Shown in pieces: positions 1 through 63,029 of a stretch of 64,000 nucleotides of DNA. Made by a program: the position numbers and the translations under genes. The stretch lies in IMG/VR virus record IMGVR_UViG_3300045988_180399; one strand, written 5' to 3'. The stretch comes from a virus. The notes under the pieces are model-generated. The model ran no database searches, was not told where the DNA came from, and saw only the letters and a program-made list of their open reading frames with translations. Numbering within the stretch: position 1 is the first letter of the stretch; each line of letters opens with the position of its first letter.

Positions 1-118
1 CGGTATGCTGAGACCATACAAAGGAAGTATCACAAACATAATGAAAGTTCAGTCTGCACCCAACGGGCGCAGGCTTTTATATAAATCAAAAAATAACAAG
101 TAAGGAGAATCAGAAAAA
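1..118 (+). promoter_or_regulatory. Conserved structured leader module, copy A (5' truncated at window edge)
   Basis: Matches other copies: CGGTATGCTGAGACCATACAAAGGAAGTATCACAAACA...AAGTTCAGTC then hairpin (CTGCACCC/GGGCGCAG) + GGCTTTTATATA + AAGGAGA RBS; ATG at 119. Confidence 0.6.
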
Positions 119-14545: not shown

Positions 14546-15418
14546 GTGAGCGATAAGCGTAACGAGGACTTGAAACAGTTCATTATTCCAGAAAATTTTA
14601 TGGGAGAATCCAGACTATTTCAAGGGCAGTTAAAGACACGCAATGTAGTGGAAGGAGGATTGATTTCGGGGGTATTGGCAATTTTCTTTTGGAATGTCAT
14701 TTCAGTTCCTATCACCACAAAAATATCCCTGGTCATATTCCTTTCCGCACCACTTGGCCTGCTTGGCTTGTTTGGAGTGAACGGCGACCCGCTGTCCACC
14801 TTTATCAAGATTTTCTTTTCATGGCGAAGAAAACGGGGGCTGATGCTGTTCAACAACGAAGCACGAGCGTTGAAGGAAGCCCCCATTAAGCTCATGATGT
14901 CGGAAGATGGCATGGGCGACAAACTCAGGGATTTTCTGGATGCCAGAAAGGAAAAGAAGGCCGCCGAACGGGCGAGTCAGGAGATGGTTGAAGGCAAAAC
15001 ATTCGAGTTTGCACCTGACAGTTCACTTGAGGGCAACTACATTGATGAAGATGACGATGGCGATGGAACGCCGAGCGGCAGCGCCGGCAATCGCCATAAA
15101 ACAAAGCACAACCAATCCTTCGTTGAAGTGGAAGTCCTGGAAGAGGATGACGATACCTCGTTGGAACTGGACGGATTTACGGAGGATATCGACAGCAGCA
15201 CTGTTGAGGAATCTGGCCCGCCGTTGCCGGATTTGGGCGGGGCCGACGATGTGGAATTGAGCAACGATGACACCAACGAGATGCCTGACGCCGAGGAACC
15301 TGACGATAATCCCCCCGCGTGTGAAACGCAACTGGAGCCTGCGGCAGAGGATGATTCTGACGCCGAAGGCGACGCGGATGGGGAAGATGAAGAACTTGAC
15401 GAGGAGGATTTGTTTTAA
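14546..15418 (+). CDS. TcpE/VirB3-like small membrane T4SS protein with long acidic C-terminal tail
   Basis: 290 aa, GTG start after GGAGG; two adjacent TM helices near N-terminus; stop overlaps VirB4 start (TAATG). Confidence 0.5.
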   Translation: MSDKRNEDLKQFIIPENFMGESRLFQGQLKTRNVVEGGLISGVLAIFFWNVISVPITTKISLVIFLSAPLGLLGLFGVNGDPLSTFIKIFFSWRRKRGLMLFNNEARALKEAPIKLMMSEDGMGDKLRDFLDARKEKKAAERASQEMVEGKTFEFAPDSSLEGNYIDEDDDGDGTPSGSAGNRHKTKHNQSFVEVEVLEEDDDTSLELDGFTEDIDSSTVEESGPPLPDLGGADDVELSNDDTNEMPDAEEPDDNPPACETQLEPAAEDDSDAEGDADGEDEELDEEDLF

Positions 15419-17910
15419 TGTCCAGAAAACTGAAACAGGTGATAAGCTGCCAATCTTTCTCGCCCATAAGTGATGTCCGTGACGGCATCATCGTCACGAA
15501 AGACGGGAAATTTGTGAAGTTGATGGAGTTCTCTCCCATTAACTACGGCTTACGGTCGAACGAGGATAAGAACATGATTACGGCACAATATGCGGCCGCA
15601 ATCCGCTCGTTTCCAAGCGTTGTCCAAATCAAAGTTCTGTCCAATCGAGCAAATGTCGAACACTATATTTCCGGCATGGTGGAAAGCGTGCGCCATGAAA
15701 AGAATGAAGGAACCCGTGAACTGATGCGGGAGCAAATCGACATGATGTCAGAATTTGGCGCATCGCAAGGCGTATCCCGTCGCTTCTTTCTCGCATTCCA
15801 GTACGAGGAAGAAGAGGGATTCGCACATCGTTCACCATCATGGAATGAAATCAGAAGCACCATTACGAGACAGGAGGACGCCATCAGAAGCAACCTTCGG
15901 GCCTGCGGCAACATTATGATTTCAAGGCCTCACGATGACGTCTATGTGCTTTCCACGCTTTACGATATCATGTCCAGAGCACAGAGCGCGAACCACCCGT
16001 TTGACGAGAGAATGGCGGATGTTGTTGCCCGATATACGGCGGCAAACATCGACTTCACGCGAGATAGCGCGGCGCATCTTCCTGTCAATGATGTGCTTGC
16101 TCCGTACTGCATTGATACGGAGTCAAGTCCCCGATATATCATCGTGGATGGCATCTACTATATGTGCTGCTATCTTCCGAGCAATGCCTATCCTGTGCGC
16201 GTTCTTGGCGGCTGGATGCAGCTGCTGGCAGGGCTGGGAGAGGGGATTGATGTGGATGTTTGGCTTCAGAAGATTTCACCGGAGAAGATTCAAACGGCAC
16301 TGCATCATGGCCTGCGGTTCAATGCAATGCGCTTCCGCAACACAGAAACCACCAGTAGCGACTACGATGATGTGAAGGCTGCGGTGGACGCAGGATACTA
16401 TCTGAAAAGCTCTCTCGCGGCCGGCGACGAATTTGCCTATATGTCTACAATGCTCACTATTACAGGTGAAAGCGAGCGAGAAATTGACTACAAATTCAAG
16501 GAAATCCGGCGCATTTTCATTGAGAGAGAATTGACTCTGAAGCCTTGTACTTTCCAGCAAGCGGAAGCGTTTCGCTCCACCATTCCCGTATGTGAGTATG
16601 ACAAAAACCTATTCCGTAAGAGCCGCAGAAATATTCTGTGTTCCGATTTTGCGTCCACCTATATGTTCACATCTTCCGAGCTGTGCGATAAGGACGGCGT
16701 GATGCTGGGCGTGGATGATGTGTTCAAATCACCGGTTCTGGTCAACTTCTTCGACCGCCAGCAATACATCAATGCCAACATCAATATTGTCGGCTCCTCT
16801 GGCTCCGGTAAGACCTTCACCACGCAGGTTCTGGCATTGAGAATGCGGGAGAAGGGGGTTCAAACCTTCATTATCGCGCCGCTGAAAGGCAAGGAGTTCC
16901 TGCCGCTTTGCGAGAAGGTCGGGGGTAGTTTCATTGAAATCAAACCTGGCTCCGGACAGAATATCAATATCATGGAGATACGCAAGAAGGAAGAGGGTAA
17001 CGTCTACGATGACGATGGTGCGTTGGTCACTTCCGGCTCGATTTTGGCACAGAAAATCCAGCAACTTCTCATTTTCTTTAAGCTGATTATCCCGGACATG
17101 ACGCCAGAAGAGGTGCAGTATGTGGATGACGCGCTGCTGAAAACTTACGGCAATTTCGGAATTACCCATAAGAACAAGAGCCTGTTGGACCCCAACGACA
17201 AGAAGAAATACCGCAAAATGCCTATCCTTTCGGACGTATATTCCGAGCTGGAAAAGATGGGCGCACCAGCAAATCGTTTGTGCCGTTTGCTGACGCGATA
17301 CACCACAGGTTCTGCATCTTCGTTCAACGCGCAAACCAATGTGAACCTTAACAACAAGTTCGTAGTGCTGGATGTTTCCGATGCGCAGAAAGACTTTCTT
17401 CCTGTGGCTATGTTCCTTGCATTGGATTATGTTTGGGATAAATGCAAAGAAAATCGGAACGTCAACAAGTGTGTTTTCATTGACGAGACTTGGCGCTTGG
17501 TCTGCTCCGATGCACCTATCGAAGCCGCCAATTTCGTGGTCGAAATCTTCCGTACTATCCGAGGCTTCGGCGGAAGTGCCGTCGCTGCCACGCAGAATAT
17601 CGCAGACTTCTTCTCTGCGGGAATTGGCACCGCCATCATCGGAAACGCCAAAATCAAAATGATTTTGCGCAGCGAAAAAGAGGAAGCAAACGCGATTGCG
17701 GATGCGATTGGTCTGACCGACGAAGAACTCAAGCGTGTAAAAACCATGGACCGTGGAACCTGTCTCCTGACCGCAAATGAGAACCACATTTTCATCAATG
17801 TTAAGGCGACGGATACGGAAGAATACCTGATAACGACTGACCCCAAAGCAAGAGCCGCTGCGAAGCGCCGAATTGAGCAGAAGCGTACTTGCGCTGCCTT
17901 CAGGCGCTGA
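15418..17910 (+). CDS. VirB4/TcpF/PrgJ-family conjugal transfer ATPase
   Basis: 830 aa; Walker A GSSGSGKT, Walker B-like VFIDETW, CagE/TrbE/VirB4 architecture. Confidence 0.8.
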   Translation: MSRKLKQVISCQSFSPISDVRDGIIVTKDGKFVKLMEFSPINYGLRSNEDKNMITAQYAAAIRSFPSVVQIKVLSNRANVEHYISGMVESVRHEKNEGTRELMREQIDMMSEFGASQGVSRRFFLAFQYEEEEGFAHRSPSWNEIRSTITRQEDAIRSNLRACGNIMISRPHDDVYVLSTLYDIMSRAQSANHPFDERMADVVARYTAANIDFTRDSAAHLPVNDVLAPYCIDTESSPRYIIVDGIYYMCCYLPSNAYPVRVLGGWMQLLAGLGEGIDVDVWLQKISPEKIQTALHHGLRFNAMRFRNTETTSSDYDDVKAAVDAGYYLKSSLAAGDEFAYMSTMLTITGESEREIDYKFKEIRRIFIERELTLKPCTFQQAEAFRSTIPVCEYDKNLFRKSRRNILCSDFASTYMFTSSELCDKDGVMLGVDDVFKSPVLVNFFDRQQYINANINIVGSSGSGKTFTTQVLALRMREKGVQTFIIAPLKGKEFLPLCEKVGGSFIEIKPGSGQNINIMEIRKKEEGNVYDDDGALVTSGSILAQKIQQLLIFFKLIIPDMTPEEVQYVDDALLKTYGNFGITHKNKSLLDPNDKKKYRKMPILSDVYSELEKMGAPANRLCRLLTRYTTGSASSFNAQTNVNLNNKFVVLDVSDAQKDFLPVAMFLALDYVWDKCKENRNVNKCVFIDETWRLVCSDAPIEAANFVVEIFRTIRGFGGSAVAATQNIADFFSAGIGTAIIGNAKIKMILRSEKEEANAIADAIGLTDEELKRVKTMDRGTCLLTANENHIFINVKATDTEEYLITTDPKARAAAKRRIEQKRTCAAFRR

Positions 17911-35443: not shown

Positions 35444-36080
35444 GAACTCAACCGGACGGAAGGAATGCACCCGCCAGCTTTCCGCCATGCTGGAGCGACA
35501 CATCGACCCGCGCAACGACCCACGCATCTACTGGGCGAAAGAGGTCACATTCGATTACTCGACCAATCACAAAATCCGCGTGGACTATATGCGCTTCCAG
35601 CCGCTCAACAATACGACCTCCGGCATTGAGAAGGGGGACTTCTACGCCTATGAGGTGAAGTCCTCCGTGGAGGATTTTAAGTCTCCTAACGGACACAATT
35701 TCATCGCGGACTACAACTACTACGTTATGCCCGCAGACGTCTTCGAAGCGGTGAAGGATACTGTGCCATACGGCGTCGGTGTGCTTTGCCCGGACGGCGG
35801 GCATCTGCGATGCGTGAGGAAAGCCGTGAGGAAGGACCGAACCAGACCGGTCAGCGAGATGCTGCTCATGCTGTGGCGCAGCTCACGAAGAGATTTTCTC
35901 ACCACTGACGTGGCCCCGGTAATGCACACCAGCTGGGCGCATCTTGGCGGGGACGAGTGGTGTTGCCCTGCGTGCGGCTTTGTCATTACCACTGAGGGCA
36001 GTTGGGACAAGCCTACCAAAAAATACTGCGAGGATTGCGGGGCCAAGATGGACGGAGGTGCTGACCATGAATCTGGTTGA
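35415..36080 (+). CDS. PD-(D/E)XK nuclease-like protein (MmcB/DUF1052-like) with C-terminal zinc ribbon
   Basis: 221 aa; D...E(Y)EVKSS catalytic-like motif, C-terminal CCPACG...CEDCG. Confidence 0.35.
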   Translation: MTRRCPVMTENSTGRKECTRQLSAMLERHIDPRNDPRIYWAKEVTFDYSTNHKIRVDYMRFQPLNNTTSGIEKGDFYAYEVKSSVEDFKSPNGHNFIADYNYYVMPADVFEAVKDTVPYGVGVLCPDGGHLRCVRKAVRKDRTRPVSEMLLMLWRSSRRDFLTTDVAPVMHTSWAHLGGDEWCCPACGFVITTEGSWDKPTKKYCEDCGAKMDGGADHESG

Positions 36081-36357
36081 TATTGATAAATTGGGCGTGG
36101 GGCGGTGCAGCAAAGATGTTCTCCCTGCGGCGTATTGTGCTGGTTGGAACGGCTTACTTGGCTTGCTCGAAAAAGCCCCCACTGTGGATGCCGTGCCGGT
36201 GGTGCGATGTGAGGGCTGTGTATTTTCGCAATCAGACGGTTGGGTTTGCGGTGGTACATCTCTCATGCCGCAGCATCGAACATTTCCAAATAGTTTTTGC
36301 AGCGACGGAGAAAGGAAAAACAAAAATGACAAAGAAACAAACGACAGACAAGATTAA
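36067..36357 (+). CDS. small Cys-rich hypothetical protein
   Basis: 97 aa, ATG overlaps upstream stop (ATGA); CxxC..CxGC pattern. Confidence 0.25.
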   Translation: MNLVDIDKLGVGRCSKDVLPAAYCAGWNGLLGLLEKAPTVDAVPVVRCEGCVFSQSDGWVCGGTSLMPQHRTFPNSFCSDGERKNKNDKETNDRQD

Positions 36358-36724
36358 CCAGCCTGAGTTTGCCCCGGAGGAGTGGCGGAAGGCGGCCATT
36401 ATGTACGATACATCCTTTGCCTGGTGTAAGAATCAAATTTCAGCCTGGGGTAAGAATCAAATTTCATTTACACCGGGCTTTAACGAGATGTTCGATGAAG
36501 CGCTGGACACACTTCCTGAGCGAAACCGCGATATCGTCCAAAAGTATTTTCGTGACAGAATGACGTTTTCGCAAATCGCCGACCTGCACGGCACCAGCAG
36601 AAGCATAGTTCGCCATCTGTGTATCTGGACGGTATGGAAGGTCATGAATTTGATTCTGCTGCGAGAAGGAAGCAGCCAAAATGCCGCGCCACAAACAGGC
36701 GGAGGAACTGAAGGTGGGTATTGA
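36326..36724 (+). CDS. small sigma-70 region-4 (HTH) domain protein / ECF-like sigma factor fragment
   Basis: 132 aa from ATG 36326 (RBS GGAGAAAGG); LDTLPERNRDIVQKYFRDRMTFSQIADLHGTSRSIVRHL = sigma region 4.2-like HTH; contains 24-nt in-frame tandem duplication. Confidence 0.45.
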   Translation: MTKKQTTDKINQPEFAPEEWRKAAIMYDTSFAWCKNQISAWGKNQISFTPGFNEMFDEALDTLPERNRDIVQKYFRDRMTFSQIADLHGTSRSIVRHLCIWTVWKVMNLILLREGSSQNAAPQTGGGTEGGY

Positions 36725-37765: not shown

Positions 37766-37794
37766 TTGACAAGTAAGCTATTGTGTGGTATAAT
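37766..37794 (+). promoter_or_regulatory. sigma-A type promoter TTGACA-N17-TGTGGTATAAT
   Basis: -35 37766-37771, -10 37789-37794. Confidence 0.65.
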
Positions 37795-37818
37795 TGCTGC
37801 ATTCAATGAAGGGGGGGT

Positions 37819-38938
37819 GGTTGACATCACGAATACCAGTAATTTAGCCGCTGACCGTGCGCTTGCCTATGAAGCCATTGAAAGGCAGCCTGAAACAGAA
37901 GAAATCGCAGCTTCGAATGAACAGGAGACCGAAGCGAAGCAGCCGGGAAATATCGGCGACCATGTGGCGATGTATCTCAGCCAAATTGGCAGCATCCCCA
38001 TTATGCCGCAGGTGGAAGCGAATCGCTGTATTGAAAAAGTGCAGAAGGGGAATGCCGCTGCCGAACAGCTCGAAACGCTGCGGGTGATTGCCGAGGAGAG
38101 CGGGAATGCAGTTGACCCCGAAATCAAGAAAGACCTGATGAAGGCCATAGAAGCAGGAAGACGGGCGAAAGATAAGGTTGTTGAGGGCAATCTTCGGCTT
38201 GTTGTGTCCATCGCAAAGAAATATATAAACTCAGCCGATTCTATGGTGTTCATGGACCTCATTCAGGAGGGCAACATTGGCCTCATGCGTTCCATCGACT
38301 CTTTTGACATTTCGAGGAATGTGAAGTTTTCCACCTACGCAACCTTCTGGATAAGGCAAAACATCACAAGAGCGCTTGCCACGACGGACCCAGCCATTCG
38401 CAAGCCCATCTATGTTGCGGAGGGCAGGCGGAGCGTCAATAATGCAAAAGAACAAATGCAACAAAAAGGCTTACCTTGTGATGACCCTTTAGAAATCGCA
38501 AAATACATGGAGGGGGATGCGTGGGATTCCCTTTCAAAAAGGGAGCAGCAGAAAAAACTGCGCATCATCCAACACTCGCTCCAGTACCGGAAGCCGGACT
38601 CGTTGGATGCGCCCGTCAATTCGGACGCCGCAAGCGATTCCAACACACCGCTTTCGGAATTCATCCCAAGCCATAACGAGTGGGATAACCCGGAAATTTC
38701 AACGTCAGGGAAGGCACTATGGGAAACGATGGACAAAATCCTGCACGATATGCCCGCACGAGACGCCTGTGTGCTTCGCTTACGATTCGGATTGGAGGAT
38801 GGTTGTGCTTATACCCTCAAAGAAATCGGGGACGAAATGGACTTAACGCGAGAGCGTGTCCGTCAGGTTACAGATAAAACACTCGATAAGCTACGCAACG
38901 GAAAGGCAGGGAAGATGCTTCAGGACTTTCTTGAATAA
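37819..38938 (+). CDS. RNA polymerase sigma-70 family sigma factor (regions 1.2, 2, 3, 4)
   Basis: ~373 aa; likely GTG start 37819 after GAAGGGGGGG (ORF open from 37766); region 1.2 DHVAMYLSQIGSIPIMP, region 2 NLRLVVSIAKKY...LIQEGNIGLMRSIDSFD...FSTYATFWIRQ, region 4 LTRERVRQVTDKTLDKLR. Confidence 0.8.
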
Positions 38939-38970: not shown

Positions 38971-39044
38971 CTATTCTCCGTTTCTTAAATCCAATCGAGC
39001 AGTTCCGCCAGCGTGAAGCGGACATTGCGCGTGACGATATGTAT

Positions 39045-39213
39045 TCTTCGGTTCTCAGGTTCCCAACATTAAAATAGGCGTGTTTCCATATTTGCCGGTA
39101 TGCTCAGAGCATACAAAGGAAGTATCTCAAACACAAAGAAAGTTCAGTCAGCGTCCGTTGCGGATGCTGGCTTTTATATATAAAAAATTCATAAACAAAA
39201 AGGAGAAATGAAC
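39045..39213 (+). promoter_or_regulatory. Conserved structured leader module, copy B
   Basis: GGTTCTCAGGTTCC box; hairpin-1 GTATGCTC-A-GAGCATAC; AAGTATCTCAAACACAAAGAAAGTTCAGTCAGCG; hairpin-2 TCCG-TTGC-CGGA in CAGCGTCCG..CGGATGCTG; GGCTTTTATATATA; AAAAGGAGAAATGAAC ATG. Confidence 0.7.
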
Positions 39214-41063: not shown

Positions 41064-41089
41064 CATGTTTTGCCACAATCGAGTTCTCA

Positions 41090-41257
41090 TATTCTTAGGT
41101 TCTCAATCAGGAAATAGGTGATTTTTTCTCTTCTGCCGGTATGCTGAAATCATACAAAAGAAGTATCTCAAACACAAAGAAAGTTCAGTCAGCGTCCGTT
41201 GCGGATGCTGGCTTTTATATATAAAAATTTCATAAACAAAAAGGAGAAACGAAAAAA
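41090..41257 (+). promoter_or_regulatory. Conserved structured leader module, copy C
   Basis: Same block order as copy B; 3' 95 nt nearly identical to copy B. Confidence 0.7.
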
Positions 41258-41956: not shown

Positions 41957-41980
41957 CAAAAAAGAAGGAGAATGAGAATT

Positions 41981-42646
41981 ATGACTAATATTAGTGAGAA
42001 AACCACCGGTTCCTGCAAAGACCGCGAGTATATCGTGACAGAGGTCTGCCCGCATTGCGAAGCAGAGGTTGAGATGCGATGGAATGTGGCCGCAGACGGC
42101 TACAAGGCGTTCTGCCCTCATTGCGGCAAGCGGCTGATGCTCTGTGACGCCTGCCAGCATCCGGAGGACAAGTGCGTGGAGAACTGCGATTACAACTCCG
42201 AGACCGATACCTGCCGTCACAATCAGCCTGAACAGGAGCTGAAGGCCGGCGATGTCTGTACCTATGGCTTTGGAACGGAGAATGCTTCCCGTGCCACGGT
42301 CAAAATCATCGAGCTGCTGCCTCGTTCTGAGGCTGCAACCGTGATGTTCCTGAGCGTGGAGAGGGACGATACCGGAAACGGTATGTTCAACTACCTGCTC
42401 AAAACCGGGAATACCATGAATGCCAGCCTGAAATATCTGACGAAGATTGAGTGCAGTTCCGACCAGGAACGGGATAACTACGCCGAACTGGAGAAGCTGT
42501 GTACGGAATGCGACACGGAGTTCTGTGTCTTCAATCCGCACGGCATCTGCAAGCTACCCTTCGTCACCGGAAAGGCTCCGAGACTGGGCGATGACGGCTG
42601 CCAGGACTACGCTATGAAGGATTTCATGATGAAGGAGGATTGCTGA
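41981..42646 (+). CDS. hypothetical protein with N-terminal double zinc-ribbon
   Basis: 222 aa; CPHCEAEV...CPHCGKRLMLCDACQH. Confidence 0.45.
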   Translation: MTNISEKTTGSCKDREYIVTEVCPHCEAEVEMRWNVAADGYKAFCPHCGKRLMLCDACQHPEDKCVENCDYNSETDTCRHNQPEQELKAGDVCTYGFGTENASRATVKIIELLPRSEAATVMFLSVERDDTGNGMFNYLLKTGNTMNASLKYLTKIECSSDQERDNYAELEKLCTECDTEFCVFNPHGICKLPFVTGKAPRLGDDGCQDYAMKDFMMKEDC

Positions 42647-42647
42647 A

Positions 42648-43052
42648 ATGCAGAAGACTTGTCTCAACTGTGCTCATGTGGGCGTGTGCTCCAAGCGGAT
42701 GCAGTTCATCGTGAACAACTATCTCGTCAAAAGACACTACAACGAGATTGAGAATGTCAGCAAAACGCTCGATATCTCCGTGAACTGCGACAGCTATGCA
42801 GAAAAGGATTTCTTTTCGTTCATCTGTGCGCGGGTTCGCGACTATTCCGATGGCGAAGTCTGGAGCGATGCGGACCAGATTCTGTGCAAGACAGAATCTG
42901 CCGCGAACGCGCTGTGCGACCTCCTGTGGCAGCTTTACAACGAACGGGGGGAGGCCTTTGACCTCCACACCGGCTACTACGACCCCAAGGAGGACAAGAA
43001 AAACAACGAAGAGGACCGATACACCGGCTGGTGGTATGTGTCCGCCGACTGA
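42648..43052 (+). CDS. hypothetical protein
   Basis: 134 aa; ATG overlaps upstream stop. Confidence 0.45.
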   Translation: MQKTCLNCAHVGVCSKRMQFIVNNYLVKRHYNEIENVSKTLDISVNCDSYAEKDFFSFICARVRDYSDGEVWSDADQILCKTESAANALCDLLWQLYNERGEAFDLHTGYYDPKEDKKNNEEDRYTGWWYVSAD

Positions 43053-43063
43053 AAGGAGAAAAA

Positions 43064-43267
43064 ATGAAAATTGGCAATATCCTTTGGGACACCGACGGCG
43101 ACAGGGAGGCTCTTGCCTCCCTGCCGAAGGAAGTTGAGCTGCCAAGCAGATTCGACCAGTCCCATTTTGCAAGTAGGGAAGAATGGCTCGACACGATTTC
43201 CAACTGGCTGTCCGACGAGTTTGGATTCTGTCATTTGGGGTTCGATGTCGGTGATGACGACATCTGA
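43064..43267 (+). CDS. small acidic hypothetical protein
   Basis: 67 aa; RBS AAAGGAGAAAAA. Confidence 0.4.
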   Translation: MKIGNILWDTDGDREALASLPKEVELPSRFDQSHFASREEWLDTISNWLSDEFGFCHLGFDVGDDDI

Positions 43268-43305
43268 GAATCTACGATTTTTTAACAATAAGGAGAAGTG
43301 AAAAA

Positions 43306-44223
43306 ATGGGAAAAGGTAATGTTTGTGTGAGCGGTCCGTATGAGGGCCTGTTCTATATCGACAACGACTATACCACAGTGCTTCGCCGCGAGGATGACTG
43401 TGAGGATACCATCCTCCAGAAAGACCTCAGCGCCAAGGATTTGTCCGGCAACGACTGGCTCTTCGATGACGAAGGCAGTGCGAACGAGCTGGAGGATGTG
43501 CTGGAGTGCTTTGTGGAGAACTTCACGCACAGGTATCCCAGCTTTGCGCGTGTCAAGCAGGACAAGTGGCTTGGCCGCAATGTGCGCGTCATCCTCGAAA
43601 GCAGCCTGTTTTACATCGGCATTGAGGACAGCGACTGGGCCTATGCCGTGGAACTGCTTCAGAAGGATAACCCCTGTTCGGAGGGTTTCCAGAGGAAGCA
43701 CTACAAGGCGTACCTTGACGGCATGAAAGCAGCCCTGCTGGAGCGCCTGCCAAGCATCGGCACCTACACGGGGCCGTGGACGCATGGCACCATCCGCAGG
43801 GAGCCTGTCAAGGACAACGACCTCCTCGCCGAGGCCGGCGACCGCATCGACAACGCAGTGTTCGACTTCATCTGCGCGGTTGTCACAGGCCACAGCGTAA
43901 ACGGGGAAGCGCCGAAAGAGGCTCTTCTCGCAGCTGTGAATGAGCTTTCCGTGGAACACGTCAACGCGCTTCCGGAGGGCCTCCTGTCTGACGCTACGGA
44001 CGAGGCGAAGGAAGCCGCCGGCGAACACTCCTTACAGGAGGATGCCGACGACGGGCTTCCGCTTCGCTGGGATATGGCCGCCATTGGTCCTGTGGCCGAC
44101 TATCTGGAAACCGCGCTTTCCGCACGGTTCCGCATCAATACCTGCCACCCCTGGCAGGATGATACCGAGTGCATCTGCTACGCGACAGACGAGCGCTGCC
44201 CGTACTGCACCCACAAAATTTGA
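43306..44223 (+). CDS. hypothetical protein (C-terminal Cys cluster)
   Basis: 305 aa; RBS AAGGAGAAGTGAAAAA. Confidence 0.5.
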   Translation: MGKGNVCVSGPYEGLFYIDNDYTTVLRREDDCEDTILQKDLSAKDLSGNDWLFDDEGSANELEDVLECFVENFTHRYPSFARVKQDKWLGRNVRVILESSLFYIGIEDSDWAYAVELLQKDNPCSEGFQRKHYKAYLDGMKAALLERLPSIGTYTGPWTHGTIRREPVKDNDLLAEAGDRIDNAVFDFICAVVTGHSVNGEAPKEALLAAVNELSVEHVNALPEGLLSDATDEAKEAAGEHSLQEDADDGLPLRWDMAAIGPVADYLETALSARFRINTCHPWQDDTECICYATDERCPYCTHKI

Positions 44224-44230
44224 TAAAAAA

Positions 44231-44259
44231 GCGCCGCCCGTAATGGACGGCGCTTTTTC
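44231..44259 (+). terminator. rho-independent terminator
   Basis: GCGCCGCCCG-TAAT-GGACGGCGC + TTTTT. Confidence 0.8.
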
Positions 44260-44269
44260 TTTGCAGTTC

Positions 44270-44444
44270 TCCGGTTCTTCAGTTCTCAGGTTCCTGGAAG
44301 GTGAATGCGGCAATTTCCACTTCCGCCGGTATGCTGAGACCATACCAAAGAAGTATCACAAACAAAAAAGAAAGTTCAGTCAGCGCCCGCGTGGGTGCTG
44401 GCTTTTATATATCACATAACCATCACAAAAAAGGAGAAATGAAA
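44270..44444 (+). promoter_or_regulatory. Conserved structured leader module, copy D
   Basis: GGTTCTTCAGTTCTCAGGTTCC; hairpin-1 GGTATG..CATACC; hairpin-2 CAGCGCCCG-CGTG-GGTGCTG (compensatory changes vs copy B). Confidence 0.7.
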
Positions 44445-45191
44445 ATGGAGATTTATGTAAATTACCTCGCCATTGAGGTCACTCGTCGCTGCAACATGAA
44501 ATGCGAACACTGCCTGCGCGGAGATGCGCAAAATCTTGACATCTCAACCGCAGTTCTGTCGGGCATCGCTAAGCATATCCACCCTGCTTCCGTCATTTTC
44601 ACGGGCGGCGAGCCGTCTTTGAATGTTCCGGCCATCAAGCGGTACTTTGAGCTTGCGGAGCGTTATGACACGATGCCGGCTGCTTTCTATGTCGCCACCA
44701 ACGGAGCGACGTCGAAGGAGCAGATGCGCGACCTCGCGCTGACGCTGCTGGAATCGTATGCTAAGATGGAAGAGCAGGATATGTGCGAGGTCGATGTCTC
44801 TGTGGATATGTTCCACGAGGCGTTCCGCGACAATGACAACGCGAAAATTCTGAGCGGCTTGTCCTTCTTCGGCCAGGGTAAACAGCATTCGGTCAAGGAT
44901 GACGATTTGAATTGGCTGTTAAATACCGGACGTGCCAACAAGAACGGCATCGGCGTAAGAGCACCGGAGGTGCTCAGGACCGACATGGACGAGCTGGTAA
45001 CGGATTACTCCACAGAGTACAACAGCATTGCCTTCGATACGCTCTACATTGCCGCAAACGGTAATGTGGTAGACGGCTGTGACAGCAGTTACGAGGATAT
45101 CGACGACGAGGAGAACGTGATTTGCAAGGTCAACCAGCTTCAGAAGAAAGTGAAAGACTATGTGAAGAACGCCGATTCTCAAATCTCATAA
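44445..45191 (+). CDS. radical SAM enzyme (small, QueE/activase-like size)
   Basis: 249 aa; CNMKCEHC (CxxxCxxC) cluster motif at residues 15-22; SAM-binding glycine motif IFTGGEPSL. Confidence 0.65.
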   Translation: MEIYVNYLAIEVTRRCNMKCEHCLRGDAQNLDISTAVLSGIAKHIHPASVIFTGGEPSLNVPAIKRYFELAERYDTMPAAFYVATNGATSKEQMRDLALTLLESYAKMEEQDMCEVDVSVDMFHEAFRDNDNAKILSGLSFFGQGKQHSVKDDDLNWLLNTGRANKNGIGVRAPEVLRTDMDELVTDYSTEYNSIAFDTLYIAANGNVVDGCDSSYEDIDDEENVICKVNQLQKKVKDYVKNADSQIS

Positions 45192-45203
45192 GGAGGGCTG
45201 AAG

Positions 45204-46634
45204 ATGTTTGGTTTAGACAATCTGTTTGCTCAGACATCCGCACAGAAATTCTACATTAGCAGAGACCGAATCGCGGAAATCCTGCGCGTCAGTCCTGATG
45301 CACTGGACGCCTTCGAGAAGGCTTATTCCAAAGCTGCGTTGCAGACTGAGCCAGGAAGCATTTTCGAGGTCAATTCCAGGCAGGCAGCGGCGAAAAACGA
45401 GCGGCTCGGCGACGACAGCCCGGAAGAGCTGAAAGCTCTTACGGAACGCATCGTGAAGGAGCTTATCGGGCAGACGCTGACCTACACTTATGATGGGAAA
45501 ACAGGCAAAATTGAAAAATCGCTTTCCAACGCACCGGAGAAAAATGCTCCTGTCACCAATCAGGACCTGCTGCGAATTCCCGCTTCGCTGCGACCGCAGC
45601 TGAGTGGGGAACTGATGAAGCGAGACCTTGACATCACCGCCTCAGCTGCGCTCCTGTTCTACTACGACAAGATGCAGAACGGGAAGACGCCGAAGGACCG
45701 TCGGGATGCGTATAACCGCTTTCGGCAGGGACTGGACATCCTTGACCTTGATGCGCTGGCCTACCGCATCATCGGGCAGAATCGCAACTCCATCGGACAT
45801 TGGTTCCCGGAGCTTGTGAGTGCCTACCGGGATTCTGGATTCTTCCGGATTCCGGCAACGACGATAGCCAAGGTCCCCCTGACGCTCTTACAGCTGACTC
45901 GTCTGGACTATCACAGCCTAACGCCTTCGACCATCCAAATCGTCGATAACTGGGCGCACGCTGTATTTCGCCTGAATGACGAGCGGGATTACTTCGTGAA
46001 AACCGGCACCTATTCATCGAAGTTCGACTTCCGGAATTGTCTGGTACACGGAGAAAAAGAGGTTCGAGAGCTTGGCGAGTATTTGCTCTACATCCACCAT
46101 CAGGCGTTACAGATGGCCGGTCCCCTTAGCTTTCCCTGCATTTATGGGGTCTCAACGACAAATGAGTGGGTCGTGCGGGAATTCATTCCAGATAAAGAGG
46201 GAAATCCCTGTATCTATCATGGTTTGCCGCTTCATACGGAATATCGCGTATTTGTTGACTGTGACAGCGATGCTGTCATCGGTGTCTCTCCCTATTGGGA
46301 GCCGAAGACTATGCTCAATCGCTTTGGTTCATGCTCGGACGCAAACAGTCCGCATCAGATGCACGATTATGTGATTTTCAAAAGTCACGAAGCGACCTTG
46401 ATGCGGCGCTACCATGAGAATGTCGATTCCGTGGTGGAACACATTCGGGAATTCCTGCCGGCGCTTGACCTGCAAGGCCAGTGGAGCATCGACGTGATGC
46501 AGAATGGTGACGATTTCTGGATTATCGACATGGCTGTGGCGGAAAATTCGGCGTTCTATGATTGCGTGCCGGAGAGCCTCCGCAGGCCATCTGCTGAAAA
46601 CTGGATACCCGATATTCTGAAGCCCAACAACTGA
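45204..46634 (+). CDS. hypothetical protein, possible ATP-grasp-like C-terminal domain
   Basis: 476 aa; C-terminal segments EYRVFVD and DFWIIDMAVAENS resemble ATP-grasp strand/Mg-binding motifs (weak). Confidence 0.3.
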   Translation: MFGLDNLFAQTSAQKFYISRDRIAEILRVSPDALDAFEKAYSKAALQTEPGSIFEVNSRQAAAKNERLGDDSPEELKALTERIVKELIGQTLTYTYDGKTGKIEKSLSNAPEKNAPVTNQDLLRIPASLRPQLSGELMKRDLDITASAALLFYYDKMQNGKTPKDRRDAYNRFRQGLDILDLDALAYRIIGQNRNSIGHWFPELVSAYRDSGFFRIPATTIAKVPLTLLQLTRLDYHSLTPSTIQIVDNWAHAVFRLNDERDYFVKTGTYSSKFDFRNCLVHGEKEVRELGEYLLYIHHQALQMAGPLSFPCIYGVSTTNEWVVREFIPDKEGNPCIYHGLPLHTEYRVFVDCDSDAVIGVSPYWEPKTMLNRFGSCSDANSPHQMHDYVIFKSHEATLMRRYHENVDSVVEHIREFLPALDLQGQWSIDVMQNGDDFWIIDMAVAENSAFYDCVPESLRRPSAENWIPDILKPNN

Positions 46635-46662
46635 TTTTCTTGACTTGAAAGGAGACAGAAGC

Positions 46663-47208
46663 ATGAAATTGCTGAAAGACTACGAATCCTCCTCTCTCAC
46701 CCTTAAACGGGTTCGGGAGGTCATCGACAGGGCACTGGACGAGCTGGAGTATGACTCCAGGTTCGACGTCAATGTGGCTGCCGAGAACGCCTATTATTAC
46801 TTGGCACACACCGCCTGTTGGGACGAGGACTTGGCCGCATTCCAGGCCCAGCTGGACAACGGCTGCGGTCCTGACGACGGTGCCGGGGCGCTGACCGCTT
46901 ATGAGCGCGTCGAAATCCTGGCCGCACAGGTCGAACGACTCCTGAACGACAAGGAGACCTATGCGTACAGCAAGACCATCGACGAAGATGCCCTGCTGGA
47001 CATTGTTGCCAAGACCCATCCAAGGCTGCTGGCTAAGCGGCCAGCCGATATGTCCGTTGAGGATTTCAAACACCTCTGGACTATGGTAGTTTCTGCCTAC
47101 ATCGTGGGCGGACGCGACTATGCCGAGGACGAGTTCATCAACTATACGGATGCCATCGGCGCGACGCCAGAGGCCGTCGCTGCGGTTATCCGGGCGGGCA
47201 ATGAATAA
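46663..47208 (+). CDS. hypothetical acidic protein
   Basis: 181 aa. Confidence 0.45.
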   Translation: MKLLKDYESSSLTLKRVREVIDRALDELEYDSRFDVNVAAENAYYYLAHTACWDEDLAAFQAQLDNGCGPDDGAGALTAYERVEILAAQVERLLNDKETYAYSKTIDEDALLDIVAKTHPRLLAKRPADMSVEDFKHLWTMVVSAYIVGGRDYAEDEFINYTDAIGATPEAVAAVIRAGNE

Positions 47209-47237: not shown

Positions 47238-47999
47238 ATGATTAAAAGTTTGAACAAAGCATATCAGACCGATTCCATGTATTACTGGTGTAACGCCGAG
47301 GGCGAGGTAAACTATCCCGGTTCTGGGTTTTCGACAGGTGACTCTGAGCGGCTTCCCGCTGCGGTGAAGGAACTGTACGAACACTATCAGTTCAGCCCCG
47401 GCTGCGACGCAAATCTCTATACGGTCACTTACAGCGGCGAGGATGGGATGCTCCTCACGACGATGTTCAACAGTAACTGGATGGATGTCCCTGCTGTCAA
47501 GGACGCCAAACAGAAGGCGAGGAAAGCGCTCCGCAGCATTGCAACGGAACTGACCAGACAGTGCAAGCCGTGGGGGACCGTTCTGTTCGGCGAGGATACC
47601 GACCCGGAGGGTGACGAAATTGCCCTGTTTGTCCCTGCGGAGGAGTGTGCGAGTCACTTTGAGGAAGCGGTAAAGCTCTTCGATGCCAGCGCCTTCTTTG
47701 AGCGAGTCAGGGACAAGGTTGCGGAATGCCGCTATCTTGTGTTCCTGAATAGCTCGTATGTGCGCGACGCGCAGGGCTACTTCCCCCAGCAGCTGTCCGA
47801 GGATGCTGACCCGATGGATGAATCCCAGGAGGGCAACTGGGCGGACTGCGGTGGTCCCATGCTCGTCATGGACGTATACGCAGCCTCCAAGGCCGAGGTC
47901 GCCCAGAAGATTGCCGAGGCATATCCCAATGTGGATATGGCGGTCTTCAAGATTCTCCGCTGCGACGGGGAAATGACAGAGGTGACGGCCCTTGTATAA
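47238..47999 (+). CDS. hypothetical protein
   Basis: 253 aa; RBS AAAAAGGAGAAATGAAAA. Confidence 0.5.
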   Translation: MIKSLNKAYQTDSMYYWCNAEGEVNYPGSGFSTGDSERLPAAVKELYEHYQFSPGCDANLYTVTYSGEDGMLLTTMFNSNWMDVPAVKDAKQKARKALRSIATELTRQCKPWGTVLFGEDTDPEGDEIALFVPAEECASHFEEAVKLFDASAFFERVRDKVAECRYLVFLNSSYVRDAQGYFPQQLSEDADPMDESQEGNWADCGGPMLVMDVYAASKAEVAQKIAEAYPNVDMAVFKILRCDGEMTEVTALV

Positions 48000-48204: not shown

Positions 48205-48210
48205 ACCTGA

Positions 48211-48243
48211 GCGCCGCCCCTTTGTGGGCGGCGCTTTTTCTTT
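48211..48243 (+). terminator. rho-independent terminator
   Basis: GCGCCGCCC-CTTTGT-GGGCGGCGC + TTTTTCTTTTT. Confidence 0.8.
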
Positions 48244-48264: not shown

Positions 48265-48438
48265 TTGAGGTTCCTCGGTTCTTAGGTTCCAATTTGCAAA
48301 ATGCGGAGTTTTCCGTGCCTGCCGGTATGCTGAGACCATACAAAAGAAGTATCACAAACACAAAGAAAATTCAGTCAGCGTCCATACGGATACTGGCTTT
48401 TATATATCAAAAAAATTTCAAAAAAGGAGAATTAAAAA
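48265..48438 (+). promoter_or_regulatory. Conserved structured leader module, copy E
   Basis: GAGGTTCCTCGGTTCTTAGGTTCC; GCCGGTATGCTGAGACCATACAAAAGAAGTATCACAAACACAAAGAAAATTCAGTCAGCG; hairpin-2 TCC-ATAC-GGA; GGCTTTTATATAT. Confidence 0.7.
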
Positions 48439-52794: not shown

Positions 52795-52828
52795 GAAGCG
52801 TCGCCCATCACGGGCGACGCTTTTCTTT
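52795..52828 (+). terminator. rho-independent terminator (second, tandem)
   Basis: AGCGTCGCCC-ATCAC-GGGCGACGCT + TTTCTTTG. Confidence 0.7.
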
Positions 52829-53004
52829 GTGGTTCTTTGGTTCTCAGGTTCCTTGAAATAGAATAAAGCGTTTTCTTCATCCGCCGGTATGCTGAGACCA
52901 TACAAAGGAAGTATCACATACATAAAGAAAGTTCAGTCAGCATCCCTTGCGGATGCTGGCTTTTATATATCACCTAATAATTCACGAAAAGGAGAAATGA
53001 AAAA
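52829..53004 (+). promoter_or_regulatory. Conserved structured leader module, copy F
   Basis: GGTTCTTTGGTTCTCAGGTTCC; hairpin-1; hairpin-2 perfect CAGCATCC-CTTGC-GGATGCTG; GGCTTTTATATAT; AAAAGGAGAAATGAAAAA ATG. Confidence 0.7.
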
Positions 53005-60761: not shown

Positions 60762-60982
60762 CTGGGGTTCTTGAGTTCTCAGGTTCCGAACAGACAGGTT
60801 TTGAAAATTGAAAATCGTAGGGTATGATGGCGTTACATTAAAGAAGTATCTCTCATGAAATTGACTTGATACTTCGCTGGGACAAGCGCATTCGGAACTG
60901 TCCGCAGGGAAGAATCGCTTGTCCCATTTTTTTAATGTGCAAGCTACAACCACAAAAATTATTTCGAAAAGGAGAAAAAATC
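60762..60982 (+). promoter_or_regulatory. Divergent copy G of leader module (5' half conserved; 3' half replaced by TTGACT box and long hairpin+T7)
   Basis: GGTTCTTGAGTTCTCAGGTTCC ... GTAGGGTATGATGGCGTTACATTAAAGAAGTATC; then GAAGTATC..TTGACT..GATACTTC inverted repeat; GGGACAAGCG...CGCTTGTCCC+T7 at 60879-60934; RBS AAAAGGAGAAAAAATC ATG. Confidence 0.55.
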
Positions 60983-61633
60983 ATGTCTGAGTACACCAAC
61001 AACCTGAACGTCGTCTCCACCTACAAGGGCGAAAAGAGCGTCAGCATCACCGGCACGTTCCAGTGCGGCATTCACTTCCCCAAGAGTGGGGCAAAGCCGT
61101 TCAAGGTCATCGAGCGCACATCCAAGAACAACAAGCAGTACAAGCAGATTGCCTGTACTGTTGTTATCTCCCCGGATGACCGCAAGAACAACAACGGCAA
61201 TCCTTTCTCTTCTGTCTATTACGATGGGAAGTACCTGACCTTCAAGGAGTTCCTGGAAACCACCGGCGTCGAGCTTATCAAGGGCAAGCTGTATGCCGGC
61301 GTGTTCATGGACCGCAGCACGATGGGCCTGTATCAGGTCATGGGCGACCCCAATTTGACCTTCAAGCAGAACATCGTTCTCTCCGGCGAACTGTCCGTCT
61401 ATACGGATAAGGAAGGGAAGAAGCGTGCCGCTTTCGGCCGCGTGTCCCTGTTTGCCAAGGACCATGTGGGAGCCGATAAGGTGGAAAAAGAGAACGCAAA
61501 CGTCATGCTGGAGAGCGGCGGCAACGCGCAGGCGTCCGGCGGTAGTCCTGCCGCATACGCTTCCGCAGCGCCCGCTATGAACGATGACGGCTTTATCGAC
61601 ATCTCTGATGATGACGGTGAGCTGCCGTTCTGA
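60983..61633 (+). CDS. single-stranded DNA-binding protein-like (OB-fold) with SSB-type acidic C-terminal tail
   Basis: 216 aa; G/S/A-rich linker and C-terminus ...ISDDDGELPF resembling SSB DDDIPF protein-interaction tail. Confidence 0.5.
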   Translation: MSEYTNNLNVVSTYKGEKSVSITGTFQCGIHFPKSGAKPFKVIERTSKNNKQYKQIACTVVISPDDRKNNNGNPFSSVYYDGKYLTFKEFLETTGVELIKGKLYAGVFMDRSTMGLYQVMGDPNLTFKQNIVLSGELSVYTDKEGKKRAAFGRVSLFAKDHVGADKVEKENANVMLESGGNAQASGGSPAAYASAAPAMNDDGFIDISDDDGELPF

Positions 61634-62857: not shown

Positions 62858-63029
62858 AGAATTCTTGGGTTCTTGGGTTCCTTGTGCAAAAATGGGCCAT
62901 TCCTCATATTTGTCGGTATGCTAAGAACATACCAAGGAAGTATCACAAACAAAAAGAAAGTTCAGTCAGCGGTTATAGACCATTGGCTTTTATATAAATA
63001 AACAGCTATTGTAAAGGAGAAATGAAAAA
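62858..63029 (+). promoter_or_regulatory. Conserved structured leader module, copy H
   Basis: TTCTTGGGTTCTTGGGTTCC; hairpin-1 GGTATG-CTAAGAA-CATACC; AAGTATCACAAACAAAAAGAAAGTTCAGTCAGCG; GGCTTTTATATAAATA; AAAGGAGAAATGAAAAA ATG. Confidence 0.65.

What the first reader, a model, noticed from the sequence alone, without database searches (positions are those of the whole stretch)
44445..46634. Small radical SAM enzyme paired with a 476-aa unknown (possibly ATP-grasp-like) protein as the first genes of a cassette
The 249-aa ORF has a canonical CxxxCxxC motif (CNMKCEHC) at residues 15-22 and a GGEP SAM-binding motif. Its size is that of QueE or activase-type radical SAM proteins. It is immediately followed by a 476-aa ORF whose C-terminus weakly resembles ATP-grasp motifs. 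On a mobile element, a radical SAM plus ligase-like pair could make a modified nucleotide or base, as in 7-deazaguanine-type DNA modification, or a nucleotide-derived effector. Either would be a hallmark of anti-restriction or defence-related chemistry.
Basis: partly seen in the sequence, partly recalled or inferred. Interest (0 to 1): 0.62.

Follow-up and report, generated by a model that had tools for sequence, protein, structure and literature searches.

The report
Radical SAM and ATP-grasp cargo genes
Two neighbouring genes on a gut-bacterium conjugative element encode a compact radical SAM enzyme and a Cdc123-like ATP-grasp enzyme, both from uncharacterised families, but they travel separately in most other elements, so they are probably independent accessory enzymes and not a DNA-modification pair.

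Summary

The radical SAM protein does not match QueE, glycyl-radical activases or viperin. Its core is closest to the peptide epimerase YydG/EpeE (profile E 1.9e-10), but it lacks that enzyme's auxiliary-cluster cysteines. The pairing is not conserved. Only 2 of 20 evaluable radical SAM lineages and 2 of 34 ATP-grasp lineages have the genes adjacent. The closest relatives of each gene lack the other, and neither has any conserved neighbour.

Most likely these are two independently shuffled accessory enzymes acting on proteins or peptides, possibly in counter-defence. No substrate is known. Both families are uncharacterised, and the ATP-grasp family has no Pfam model. Interest is modest.

The parts
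44445..45191 (+). Radical SAM enzyme, 248 aa. Cluster motif C16/C20/C23, GGEP 54-57, TNG 85-87, S119-x-D121-xx-H124. Extra conserved Cys at C114 and C212 (followed by D213).
45204..46634 (+). 476-aa protein. N-terminal extension of about 165 residues of unknown fold, then a Cdc123-like ATP-grasp module. Invariant residues: K266, K273, E346, R348, D430, D442, S449. A444 occupies the place of the Asn of the ExN motif.
44271..44436 (+). Repeated leader element of about 165 nt just upstream of the radical SAM gene. It has three GGTTCT-like direct repeats, a small hairpin (GGTATG...CATACC), and a 11-12 bp hairpin followed by TTTTATATAT.
44230..44262 (+). Terminator-like hairpin plus T-run that ends the preceding unit. 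It is homologous to the terminators at 48218-48243 and 52804-52829.
   Evidence: family D10
46645..47208 (+). Third gene of the unit, 187 aa. No family match.
47238..47999 (+). Fourth gene of the unit, 253 aa. No family match. A 37%-identical relative lies just upstream of the p476 homologue in L012.
48209..48236 (+). Intrinsic-terminator-like hairpin (11 pairs, 9 G-C) plus T-run that closes the unit.

Best explanation
These are two separate accessory enzymes of an integrative conjugative element. They happen to be co-transcribed here as the first two genes of a four- or five-gene unit.

Gene 1 is a compact, single-cluster radical SAM enzyme. It should cleave SAM reductively to a 5'-deoxyadenosyl radical and abstract a hydrogen atom from its substrate. 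Its core is closest to peptide-modifying enzymes of the YydG/EpeE and SPASM/twitch group. A nearly invariant Cys212-Asp213 could act as H-atom donor.

Gene 2 is an ATP-grasp enzyme of the Cdc123-like (R2K-like) type. It should bind ATP-Mg and either form an acyl-phosphate to ligate an amine (an amino acid or peptide) onto a carboxylate, most likely on a protein, or, like Cdc123, act as an ATP-dependent binder or assembler.

Both families are scattered among long runs of small unknown genes on phages, megaplasmids and conjugative elements, sometimes beside known anti-defence genes. They most likely act on host or recipient-cell targets to help the element establish itself (counter-defence or host manipulation).

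Shown: folds, motifs, operon structure, and patchy co-occurrence. Inferred: protein or peptide substrates, the counter-defence role, and catalytic competence.
For: Radical SAM identity.

Closest solved relative: the family profile matches YydG/EpeE at E 1.9e-10 over residues 6-136, sharing CNxxCxHC, FTGGE and SxDxxH. Foldseek's top hits are CteB, EpeE and MoaA.

Independence of the two genes:
- Only 2 of 41 genome loci with a p476 homologue carry the radical SAM gene.
- At 70% identity, 2 of 20 evaluable radical SAM lineages and 2 of 34 p476 lineages have the genes adjacent.
- The window's p476 is nested among relatives without the radical SAM gene.
- The nearest radical SAM relatives (63-66% identity) follow a PemK toxin gene and have no p476.
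- The nearest p476 relative (68%) follows a ThyA-family gene.
- Within the second paired family, other genes are inserted between the two, and loci lacking one gene or the other exist.
- Neither family has any conserved neighbour.

Mobile-element and anti-defence flavour:
- T4SS genes are in the window.
- p476 homologues occur in the Bifidobacterium megaplasmid pMP7017, beside a Lar protein, a large DNA methyltransferase and an R2K_3 ATP-grasp, and in SPbeta-like Staphylococcus phages.
- A radical SAM homologue lies next to AcrVA2-like and NADAR genes.
Against: No substrate or target was identified for either enzyme, and nothing experimental exists for either family. The counter-defence role rests only on neighbourhood flavour. 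No relaxase or oriT was found, so I cannot say this is a leading region.

The same gene order, radical SAM then p476, occurs in two unrelated element families and is stable within each (18/18 and 91/92 loci). That could reflect real functional synergy.

The ATP-grasp ExN motif reads D442-M-A444, so ligase activity is not assured. The peptide-directed inference for the radical SAM enzyme rests on similarity of the N-terminal core only; its C-terminal half has no informative match.
Confidence: 0.5

Rival explanations
1. The radical SAM enzyme and the ATP-grasp enzyme form a facultative two-step module acting on one target. For example, a radical-mediated change (epimerisation or cross-link) and an ATP-dependent amino-acid or peptide ligation on the same host protein or peptide.
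For: The genes are 12 nt apart and co-transcribed. The same order and orientation recur in a second, abundant gut element family whose proteins are only about 40% and 46% identical to the window's, and the arrangement is stable there. Five of 20 evaluable radical SAM lineages have p476 within 8 kb. Both enzymes resemble protein- or peptide-modifying families (PMC4431377).
Against: About 90% of lineages of each family lack the other. The closest relatives of each lack the partner. Spacing varies from 0.2 to 5.7 kb and one case is on the opposite strand. Variants lacking one gene exist inside the paired family. No shared third gene or precursor peptide was found.
Confidence: 0.2
2. The pair makes a modified base or nucleotide (7-deazaguanine-type, or a hypermodified pyrimidine) that protects the element's DNA from restriction, or makes a nucleotide-derived effector.
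For: Radical SAM enzymes take part in 7-deazaguanine synthesis and thymidine hypermodification (general knowledge, not checked here). The closest p476 relative sits directly after a thymidylate-synthase-family gene, with thymidylate-kinase-family and Dam methylase genes nearby. Weak N-terminal hits to viperin models.
Against: No QueE model is among the best NCBIfam hits, and viperin scores 23.8 bits against a cut-off of 180, covering only residues 11-95. None of the ORFs scanned resembles QueC/QueD/FolE, a tRNA-guanine transglycosylase (DpdA) or a DNA kinase. The best solved relative is a peptide epimerase. The ThyA link is seen in one lineage only.
Confidence: 0.07
3. The genes belong to a RiPP (modified peptide) biosynthetic cluster, with the radical SAM enzyme and ATP-grasp enzyme maturing a small precursor peptide.
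Against: The unit has no precursor-like small ORF, protease or exporter. There is no SPASM or twitch cysteine set. There are no conserved neighbours across about 300 loci. The genes sit on mobile elements among unrelated cargo.
Confidence: 0.04
4. The radical SAM gene is a housekeeping-type activase (PflA/NrdG-like) for a glycyl-radical enzyme encoded elsewhere.
For: The size is similar to activases. One 47%-identical relative lies 5.6 kb upstream of an NrdD gene.
Against: No activase model is among the best 25 NCBIfam hits. No glycyl-radical enzyme was found among the large ORFs of the window. The NrdD case is single and not adjacent.
Confidence: 0.02

Closest known systems
YydG/EpeE radical SAM peptide epimerase (Bacillus subtilis; PDB 8ai1-8ai6)
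   Same: It is the best sequence-profile match among solved structures (E 1.9e-10, residues 6-136) and is among the top Foldseek hits. It shares CNxxCxHC, FTGGE and SxDxxH. The window's protein has a nearly invariant Cys (C212) downstream, which could parallel the H-donor Cys223 of EpeE (PMC13012085).
   Different: The window's protein has 248 aa against about 320-344. It has no set of 3-4 conserved Cys for the auxiliary [4Fe-4S] cluster of the extended twitch domain. It scores 25.2 bits on TIGR04078, whose cut-off is 300. It has no precursor peptide, protease or ABC transporter neighbours. The global TM-score is only about 0.45.
Cdc123 and the R2K clade of ATP-grasp enzymes (Burroughs, Zhang and Aravind 2015, PMC4431377)
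   Different: It has no Pfam R2K_2, R2K_3 or D123 hit. The profile-profile match to R2K_3 is weak (E 0.0024, probability 12%). Ala replaces the Asn of the D/ExN motif. It carries an extra N-terminal region of about 165 residues. No function of bacterial R2K proteins has been tested either.
QueE (7-carboxy-7-deazaguanine synthase) and glycyl-radical activases PflA/NrdG
   Same: Small size, and a CxxxCxxC plus GGE radical SAM core.
   Different: Neither is among the best NCBIfam hits. The scanned ORFs include no queuosine or Dpd genes and no glycyl-radical enzyme.
Prokaryotic viperins (pVip)
   Same: Weak hits of the N-terminal core (PADLOC PDLC02903 E 1.1e-6; NF038283 E 2.2e-5), and Foldseek hits to viperin structures.
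   Different: Only residues about 10-95 align. The score is 23.8 bits against a cut-off of 180. The C-terminal half matches nothing in viperin, and TM-scores are 0.3-0.37.

Membership tests
Radical SAM superfamily (PF04055) | CxxxCxxC cluster-binding motif | tested here: met
   C16, C20 and C23 are present and conserved in 98-99% of 103 homologues.
Radical SAM superfamily (PF04055) | Score above the Pfam gathering threshold, and SAM-binding GGE motif | tested here: met
   34.7 bits against 29.5. G54 and E56 are invariant and G55 nearly so.
Radical SAM superfamily (PF04055) | Partial TIM-barrel core fold | tested here: met
   The AF2 model has pLDDT 94.9. Foldseek finds 31 radical SAM structures at E<=0.001.
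QueE (7-carboxy-7-deazaguanine synthase) | Match to a QueE equivalog model at its cut-off | tested here: not met
   No QueE model is among the 25 best of 41 NCBIfam hits. The best hits (MoaA, tungsten-cofactor maturase, PapB, YydG) reach at most 31 bits, against cut-offs of 129.7-650 bits.
QueE (7-carboxy-7-deazaguanine synthase) | Companion genes (QueC, QueD, FolE, DpdA/TGT) nearby | tested here: not met
   No such family appears among about 40 window ORFs scanned against Pfam, NCBIfam or PHROGs. Not every small ORF was scanned.
Glycyl-radical enzyme activases (PflA/NrdG) | Activase model match and a cognate glycyl-radical enzyme | tested here: not met
   No activase is among the best hits. 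No Gly_radical, PFL-like or NRDD domain is found in the window's large ORFs.
Viperin (pVip) | Full-length match including the C-terminal nucleotide-binding part | tested here: not met
   NF038283 scores 23.8 bits against 180, over residues 11-95 only. PADLOC pVip covers residues 10-95.
YydG/EpeE-type radical SAM epimerase | Equivalog model TIGR04078 at its cut-off | tested here: not met
   25.2 bits against 300, although it is the best PDB profile match at E 1.9e-10.
YydG/EpeE-type radical SAM epimerase | Auxiliary [4Fe-4S] cluster in an extended twitch domain | tested here: not met
   Beyond the cluster motif, only C114 (89%) and C212 (96%) are conserved. This was judged from sequence. Fe content was not measured.
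YydG/EpeE-type radical SAM epimerase | Catalytic Cys acting as H-atom donor (Cys223 in EpeE) | tested here: inconclusive
   C212-D213 is nearly invariant, but its structural equivalence to Cys223 was not established.
YydG/EpeE-type radical SAM epimerase | Adjacent precursor peptide, protease and exporter | tested here: not met
   None in the unit. No conserved neighbour in 82 radical SAM loci.
ATP-grasp superfamily | ATP-grasp fold (RAGNYA plus kinase-like domains) | tested here: met
ATP-grasp superfamily | Lys at the end of RAGNYA strand 2, and Asp in strand 4 of the kinase-like domain | tested here: met
   K266 lies at the end of strand 263-267 and is invariant among 115 close homologues; across the broader 71-sequence set the invariant lysine is K273. 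D430 lies mid-strand 426-434 and is invariant in both sets. Assignment is by position in the predicted secondary structure, not by a residue-level superposition.
ATP-grasp superfamily | ExN (or DxN) Mg-binding motif at the end of the last strand | tested here: not met
   The motif reads D442-M443-A444. D442 is invariant, but the Asn position holds Ala. E447, N448 or S449 just downstream might compensate; this is inference.
R2K clade (Cdc123, R2K.2, R2K.3) | Second conserved Lys/Arg in the loop just after the strand-2 Lys | tested here: met
   K273 is invariant in 71 diverse relatives, 7 residues after K266. The definition is in PMC4431377.
R2K clade (Cdc123, R2K.2, R2K.3) | [quoted passage not shown] | not tested
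   This needs a residue-level structural alignment, which the tools did not return.
R2K clade (Cdc123, R2K.2, R2K.3) | Sequence-model match (Pfam D123, R2K_2 PF18299, R2K_3 PF14243) | tested here: not met
   No hit even at E<=10 for the window's protein. One distant relative hits R2K_3 at E 0.1.
R2K clade (Cdc123, R2K.2, R2K.3) | Profile-profile similarity to a bona fide R2K family | tested here: inconclusive
   hhalign of A5 against A4 (an R2K_3 family that includes Achl_3995) gives E 0.0024 and probability 12%. It aligns the shared E-x-R-x-F-V strand.

The most novel reading that the evidence does not exclude
The radical SAM enzyme and the Cdc123-like ATP-grasp enzyme are a facultative two-enzyme counter-defence module of conjugative elements and phages. 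It would covalently alter a recipient-cell immune or translation protein by a radical-mediated change plus ATP-dependent amino-acid ligation. That would be a new enzymatic class of anti-defence, and the first assigned function for bacterial R2K-like ATP-grasp proteins.
Probability: 0.1. Interest if true: 0.75.

Novelty: new member of a known kind. Interest (0 to 1): 0.33.

Why it matters
Both genes belong to sizeable, completely uncharacterised enzyme families confined to mobile elements of gut Firmicutes and Actinobacteria. The ATP-grasp family has at least 700 clusters at 50% identity and no Pfam model. Enzymes in the accessory regions of conjugative elements and phages are prime candidates for new counter-defence or host-takeover chemistry. 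Bacterial relatives of the eukaryotic translation factor Cdc123 have never had a function tested. As it stands, this finding yields two annotated folds and a negative result on the proposed DNA-modification pair. It does not yield a new system.

Tried and rejected
1. QueE, activase and viperin assignments were rejected on NCBIfam and PADLOC scores and on coverage.

2. Obligate pairing was rejected by genome, metagenome and IMG/VR neighbourhood surveys and by lineage counts.

3. The search for any conserved neighbour of either gene found none. Pfam on recurrent neighbours gave only a metallo-beta-lactamase-fold protein, an ABC transporter and an AAA/VWA pair, each in a few loci.

4. Sequence searches of p476 against PDB and Pfam gave nothing, even with a profile. 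Only fold comparison worked.

6. PHROGs and NCBIfam on the other genes of the unit and on large unknown ORFs gave no useful annotation, and no relaxase was found. The 'leading region' status therefore could not be settled.

7. Rfam has no match anywhere in the window. The leader repeat has no match in PLSDB.

8. Literature searches found no paper that characterises either family.

9. RiPP reading: no precursor, protease or exporter was found.
Full report
**Setting.** Almost all genes in the window are on the + strand. Upstream of the finding lie a VirD4-type coupling protein (10106-12382), a VirB4/TraG-type ATPase (15418-17910), a CHAP plus lysozyme cell-wall hydrolase (8772-10097), an ERF recombinase, a UDG, a UvrD helicase and a sigma-70-family factor (37766-38938). 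Downstream lie a YqaJ nuclease, a RecD2 helicase and an SLH-domain protein. This is a conjugative element of a Gram-positive bacterium. The same DNA occurs at 99-100% protein identity in an Oscillospiraceae genome contig of 570 kb (L001) and in human-gut metagenome contigs (L042, L043). No relaxase or oriT was recognised, so I cannot say whether this is the leading region.

**The observation.** The ORF ending at 45191 most plausibly starts at the ATG at 44445. That ATG lies 9 nt after a GGAGA, and homologues begin MEIYVNY. The product is 248 aa.
- It has C16-x3-C20-x2-C23, GGEP at 54-57, TNG at 85-87 and S119-x-D121-xx-H124.
- Pfam Radical_SAM scores 34.7 bits, above its 29.5 cut-off.
- The AF2 model is confident (pLDDT 94.9).
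- All top Foldseek hits are radical SAM enzymes.

The next ORF, 45204-46634 (476 aa), starts 12 nt after the stop.
- It has no Pfam, NCBIfam or PADLOC match, but matches an unknown-function PHROG (12834, E 3.6e-57).
- Its family is large: at least 1924 hits in one search, and 704 clusters at 50% identity.
- The conserved core is residues about 165-460. Distant members, including a 348-aa protein of SPbeta-like Staphylococcus phages, lack the N-terminal 165 residues.

**The 476-aa protein.**
- *Sequence searches.* Searches against PDB found nothing, even with a family profile.
- *The R2K clade.* Cdc123 defines the R2K clade of Burroughs, Zhang and Aravind (PMC4431377). It is characterised by a second conserved Lys/Arg in the loop after the strand-2 lysine, and in human CDC123 by K104, D233 and D246-x-N248.
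- *Conserved residues.* Here the conserved residues fall in the corresponding predicted elements. K266 lies at the end of strand 263-267, and K273 in the following loop. [quoted passage not shown] D430 lies mid-strand, and D442 at the end of the last strand.
- *Deviation from the template.* The motif reads D442-M-A444, so the Asn of D/ExN is replaced by Ala.
- *Sequence-level link to R2K.* This link is weak. There is no Pfam R2K or D123 hit. hhalign against a bona fide R2K_3 family gives E 0.0024 and probability 12%, although it aligns the shared E-x-R-x-F-V strand. That R2K_3 family was seeded from pMP7017 and includes Achl_3995, a protein of Arthrobacter chlorophenolicus, a species listed in the alignment figure of that paper.

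I therefore file p476 as an ATP-grasp enzyme that is Cdc123/R2K-like in structure. Clade membership is not proven, and catalytic competence is not assured.

**The radical SAM enzyme.** All named NCBIfam models score far below their cut-offs. The best are MoaA, a tungsten-cofactor maturase, NirJ2, PapB, YydG and viperin, and all match mainly the N-terminal core. No QueE, PflA or NrdG model is among the best 25. A family profile finds YydG/EpeE as clearly the best solved relative (E 1.9e-10 against 1.9e-6 for CteB), over residues 6-136, sharing CNxxCxHC, FTGGE and SxDxxH. EpeE is a peptide epimerase with an auxiliary cluster in an extended twitch domain and Cys223 as H-atom donor (PMC13012085). 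The window's family keeps only two further cysteines, C114 (89%) and C212 (96%, followed by D213). An auxiliary 3-4-Cys cluster is therefore unlikely, but a cysteine H-donor is possible. It is a compact, new family in the SPASM/twitch-related part of the superfamily and is not a member of any named family.

**Is it a pair?**
- *From the p476 side.* Only 2 of 41 genome loci carry the radical SAM gene: the source element and L031.
- *From the radical SAM side.* 11 of 80 metagenome loci have p476 within 8 kb, at spacings from 0.2 to 6.4 kb and once on the opposite strand.
- *IMG/VR.* These contigs add many copies of one abundant gut element family, in which the radical SAM gene (about 40% identical to the window's) precedes p476 (about 46% identical). 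The gaps are 0.2, 1.2 or 2.4 kb.
- *Lineage counts at 70% identity.* Among radical SAM lineages, 2 of 20 evaluable ones have the genes adjacent and 5 of 20 have p476 within 8 kb. Among p476 lineages, 2 of 34 are adjacent and 4 of 34 have the radical SAM gene within 8 kb. Within the two paired families the arrangement is stable (18/18 and 91/92).
- *Tree.* The window's p476 is nested among relatives that lack the radical SAM gene.
- *Nearest relatives.* The nearest radical SAM relatives (63-66%) follow a PemK toxin gene and are followed by a 202-aa or an RRXRR protein. A 52% relative lies between AcrVA2-like/NADAR genes and a UvrD helicase. The nearest p476 relative (68%) follows a thymidylate-synthase-family gene.
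- *Other neighbours.* Neither family has any conserved neighbour.

The simplest reading is that these are two independently shuffled cargo genes that favour the same kind of accessory region. A facultative functional link cannot be excluded, because the same order arose or persisted in two unrelated element families.

**The cassette.**
- *Copies.* A repeat of about 165 nt occurs seven times in the window: 1-107 (cut by the window edge), 39040, 41080, 44271, 48267, 52829 and 62858. A degenerate relative lies near 60768. Each copy sits just before the ribosome-binding site of the first gene of a block, usually after a terminator.
- *Content.* The repeat has three GGTTCT-like direct repeats, a small hairpin, and a 11-12 bp hairpin followed by TTTTATATAT. 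That larger hairpin shows compensatory changes and + strand-specific G-U pairs.
- *Distribution.* The repeat is absent from 68 other loci, from PLSDB and from Rfam.
- *The unit.* It runs from 44445 to the terminator at 48209-48236 and also holds two or three genes without any family match.

**Verdict.** The proposed nucleotide or 7-deazaguanine chemistry has no support. Both enzymes look more like protein- or peptide-modifying types, and the pair is not a conserved system. The function of each remains unknown. A counter-defence or host-manipulation role is an inference from context: pMP7017 carries Lar and a large methyltransferase near its p476 homologue, and AcrVA2-like and NADAR genes lie near a radical SAM homologue. 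The finding amounts to two uncharacterised members of known superfamilies, and interest is modest.

Noticed in passing
window 1-107, 39040-39205, 41080-41246, 44271-44436, 48267-48431, 52829-52994, 62858-63021 (degenerate relative near 60768-60990): Seven copies of a leader repeat of about 165 nt, each just upstream of the first gene of a block. It has three GGTTCT-like direct repeats, a GGTATG...CATACC hairpin, and a 11-12 bp hairpin with compensatory changes and + strand-specific G-U pairs, followed by TTTTATATAT (terminator-like). It has no Rfam match, no copy in 68 other loci and none in PLSDB. It could be a promoter plus attenuator or antitermination leader, or a single-strand signal, private to this element.
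   Followed up: partly
window 36077-36724 and 37766-38938: Two sigma-factor-like genes lie directly upstream of the first full leader repeat. One is a weak ECF-type match. The other is a 390-aa sigma-70-family protein with regions 2 and 4. They may drive the repeated leaders, since no sigma-70 consensus promoter was found upstream of the radical SAM gene.
   Followed up: no
proteins P0005, P0125, P0136, P0132, P0128 (relatives of window 41972-46634): Metagenomes hold proteins 93-99% identical over the shared parts that are in-frame fusions. Examples are radical SAM residues 1-92 joined to p476 165-476, radical SAM 1-218 joined to p476 282-476, and the upstream 224-aa protein joined to the radical SAM C-terminus. 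These are either deletion variants circulating in populations, which would mean the genes are dispensable, or assembly chimeras.
   Followed up: no
L122 (Bifidobacterium breve megaplasmid pMP7017, NZ_KM406416.1 134497-137341): A p476 homologue (about 47% identical) is followed by a 126-aa gene and then a true R2K_3 ATP-grasp (PF14243, 33.2 bits) and an AAA ATPase. A Lar restriction-alleviation gene, an RNA ligase and a 931-aa DNA methyltransferase lie nearby. This echoes the R2K.2-R2K.3 operon linkage described in PMC4431377.
   Followed up: partly
L128-L130 (contigs carrying P0006, 68% identical to p476): The closest p476 relative lies 27 nt downstream of a thymidylate-synthase-family gene, with thymidylate-kinase-family and Dam-type methyltransferase genes within 6 kb. 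This is a single-lineage hint of a nucleotide-metabolism neighbourhood.
   Followed up: no
L131 (contig carrying P0146, 52% identical to the radical SAM protein); L124-L127: One radical SAM relative sits between AcrVA2-like plus NADAR genes and a UvrD helicase. The 63-66% relatives sit about 20-25 nt after a PemK/MazF-family toxin gene in four contigs.
   Followed up: no
L136-L142, L216-L223 (IMG/VR contigs carrying the same two genes, proteins 88-100% identical to the window's): Contigs of this element are catalogued as viral genomes in IMG/VR, although the window carries type IV secretion genes and I saw no capsid or terminase genes among the ORFs scanned. This is either a misclassified conjugative element or a hybrid.
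   Followed up: no
window 41972-42646: A Cys-rich 224-aa protein has a weak, sub-threshold YnfU-like zinc-ribbon match (24.2 bits against a cut-off of 27). Window 49467-50381 matches the unknown-function PHROG 5051 (E 6e-36). The rest of the 39-54 kb region has no family matches.
   Followed up: no
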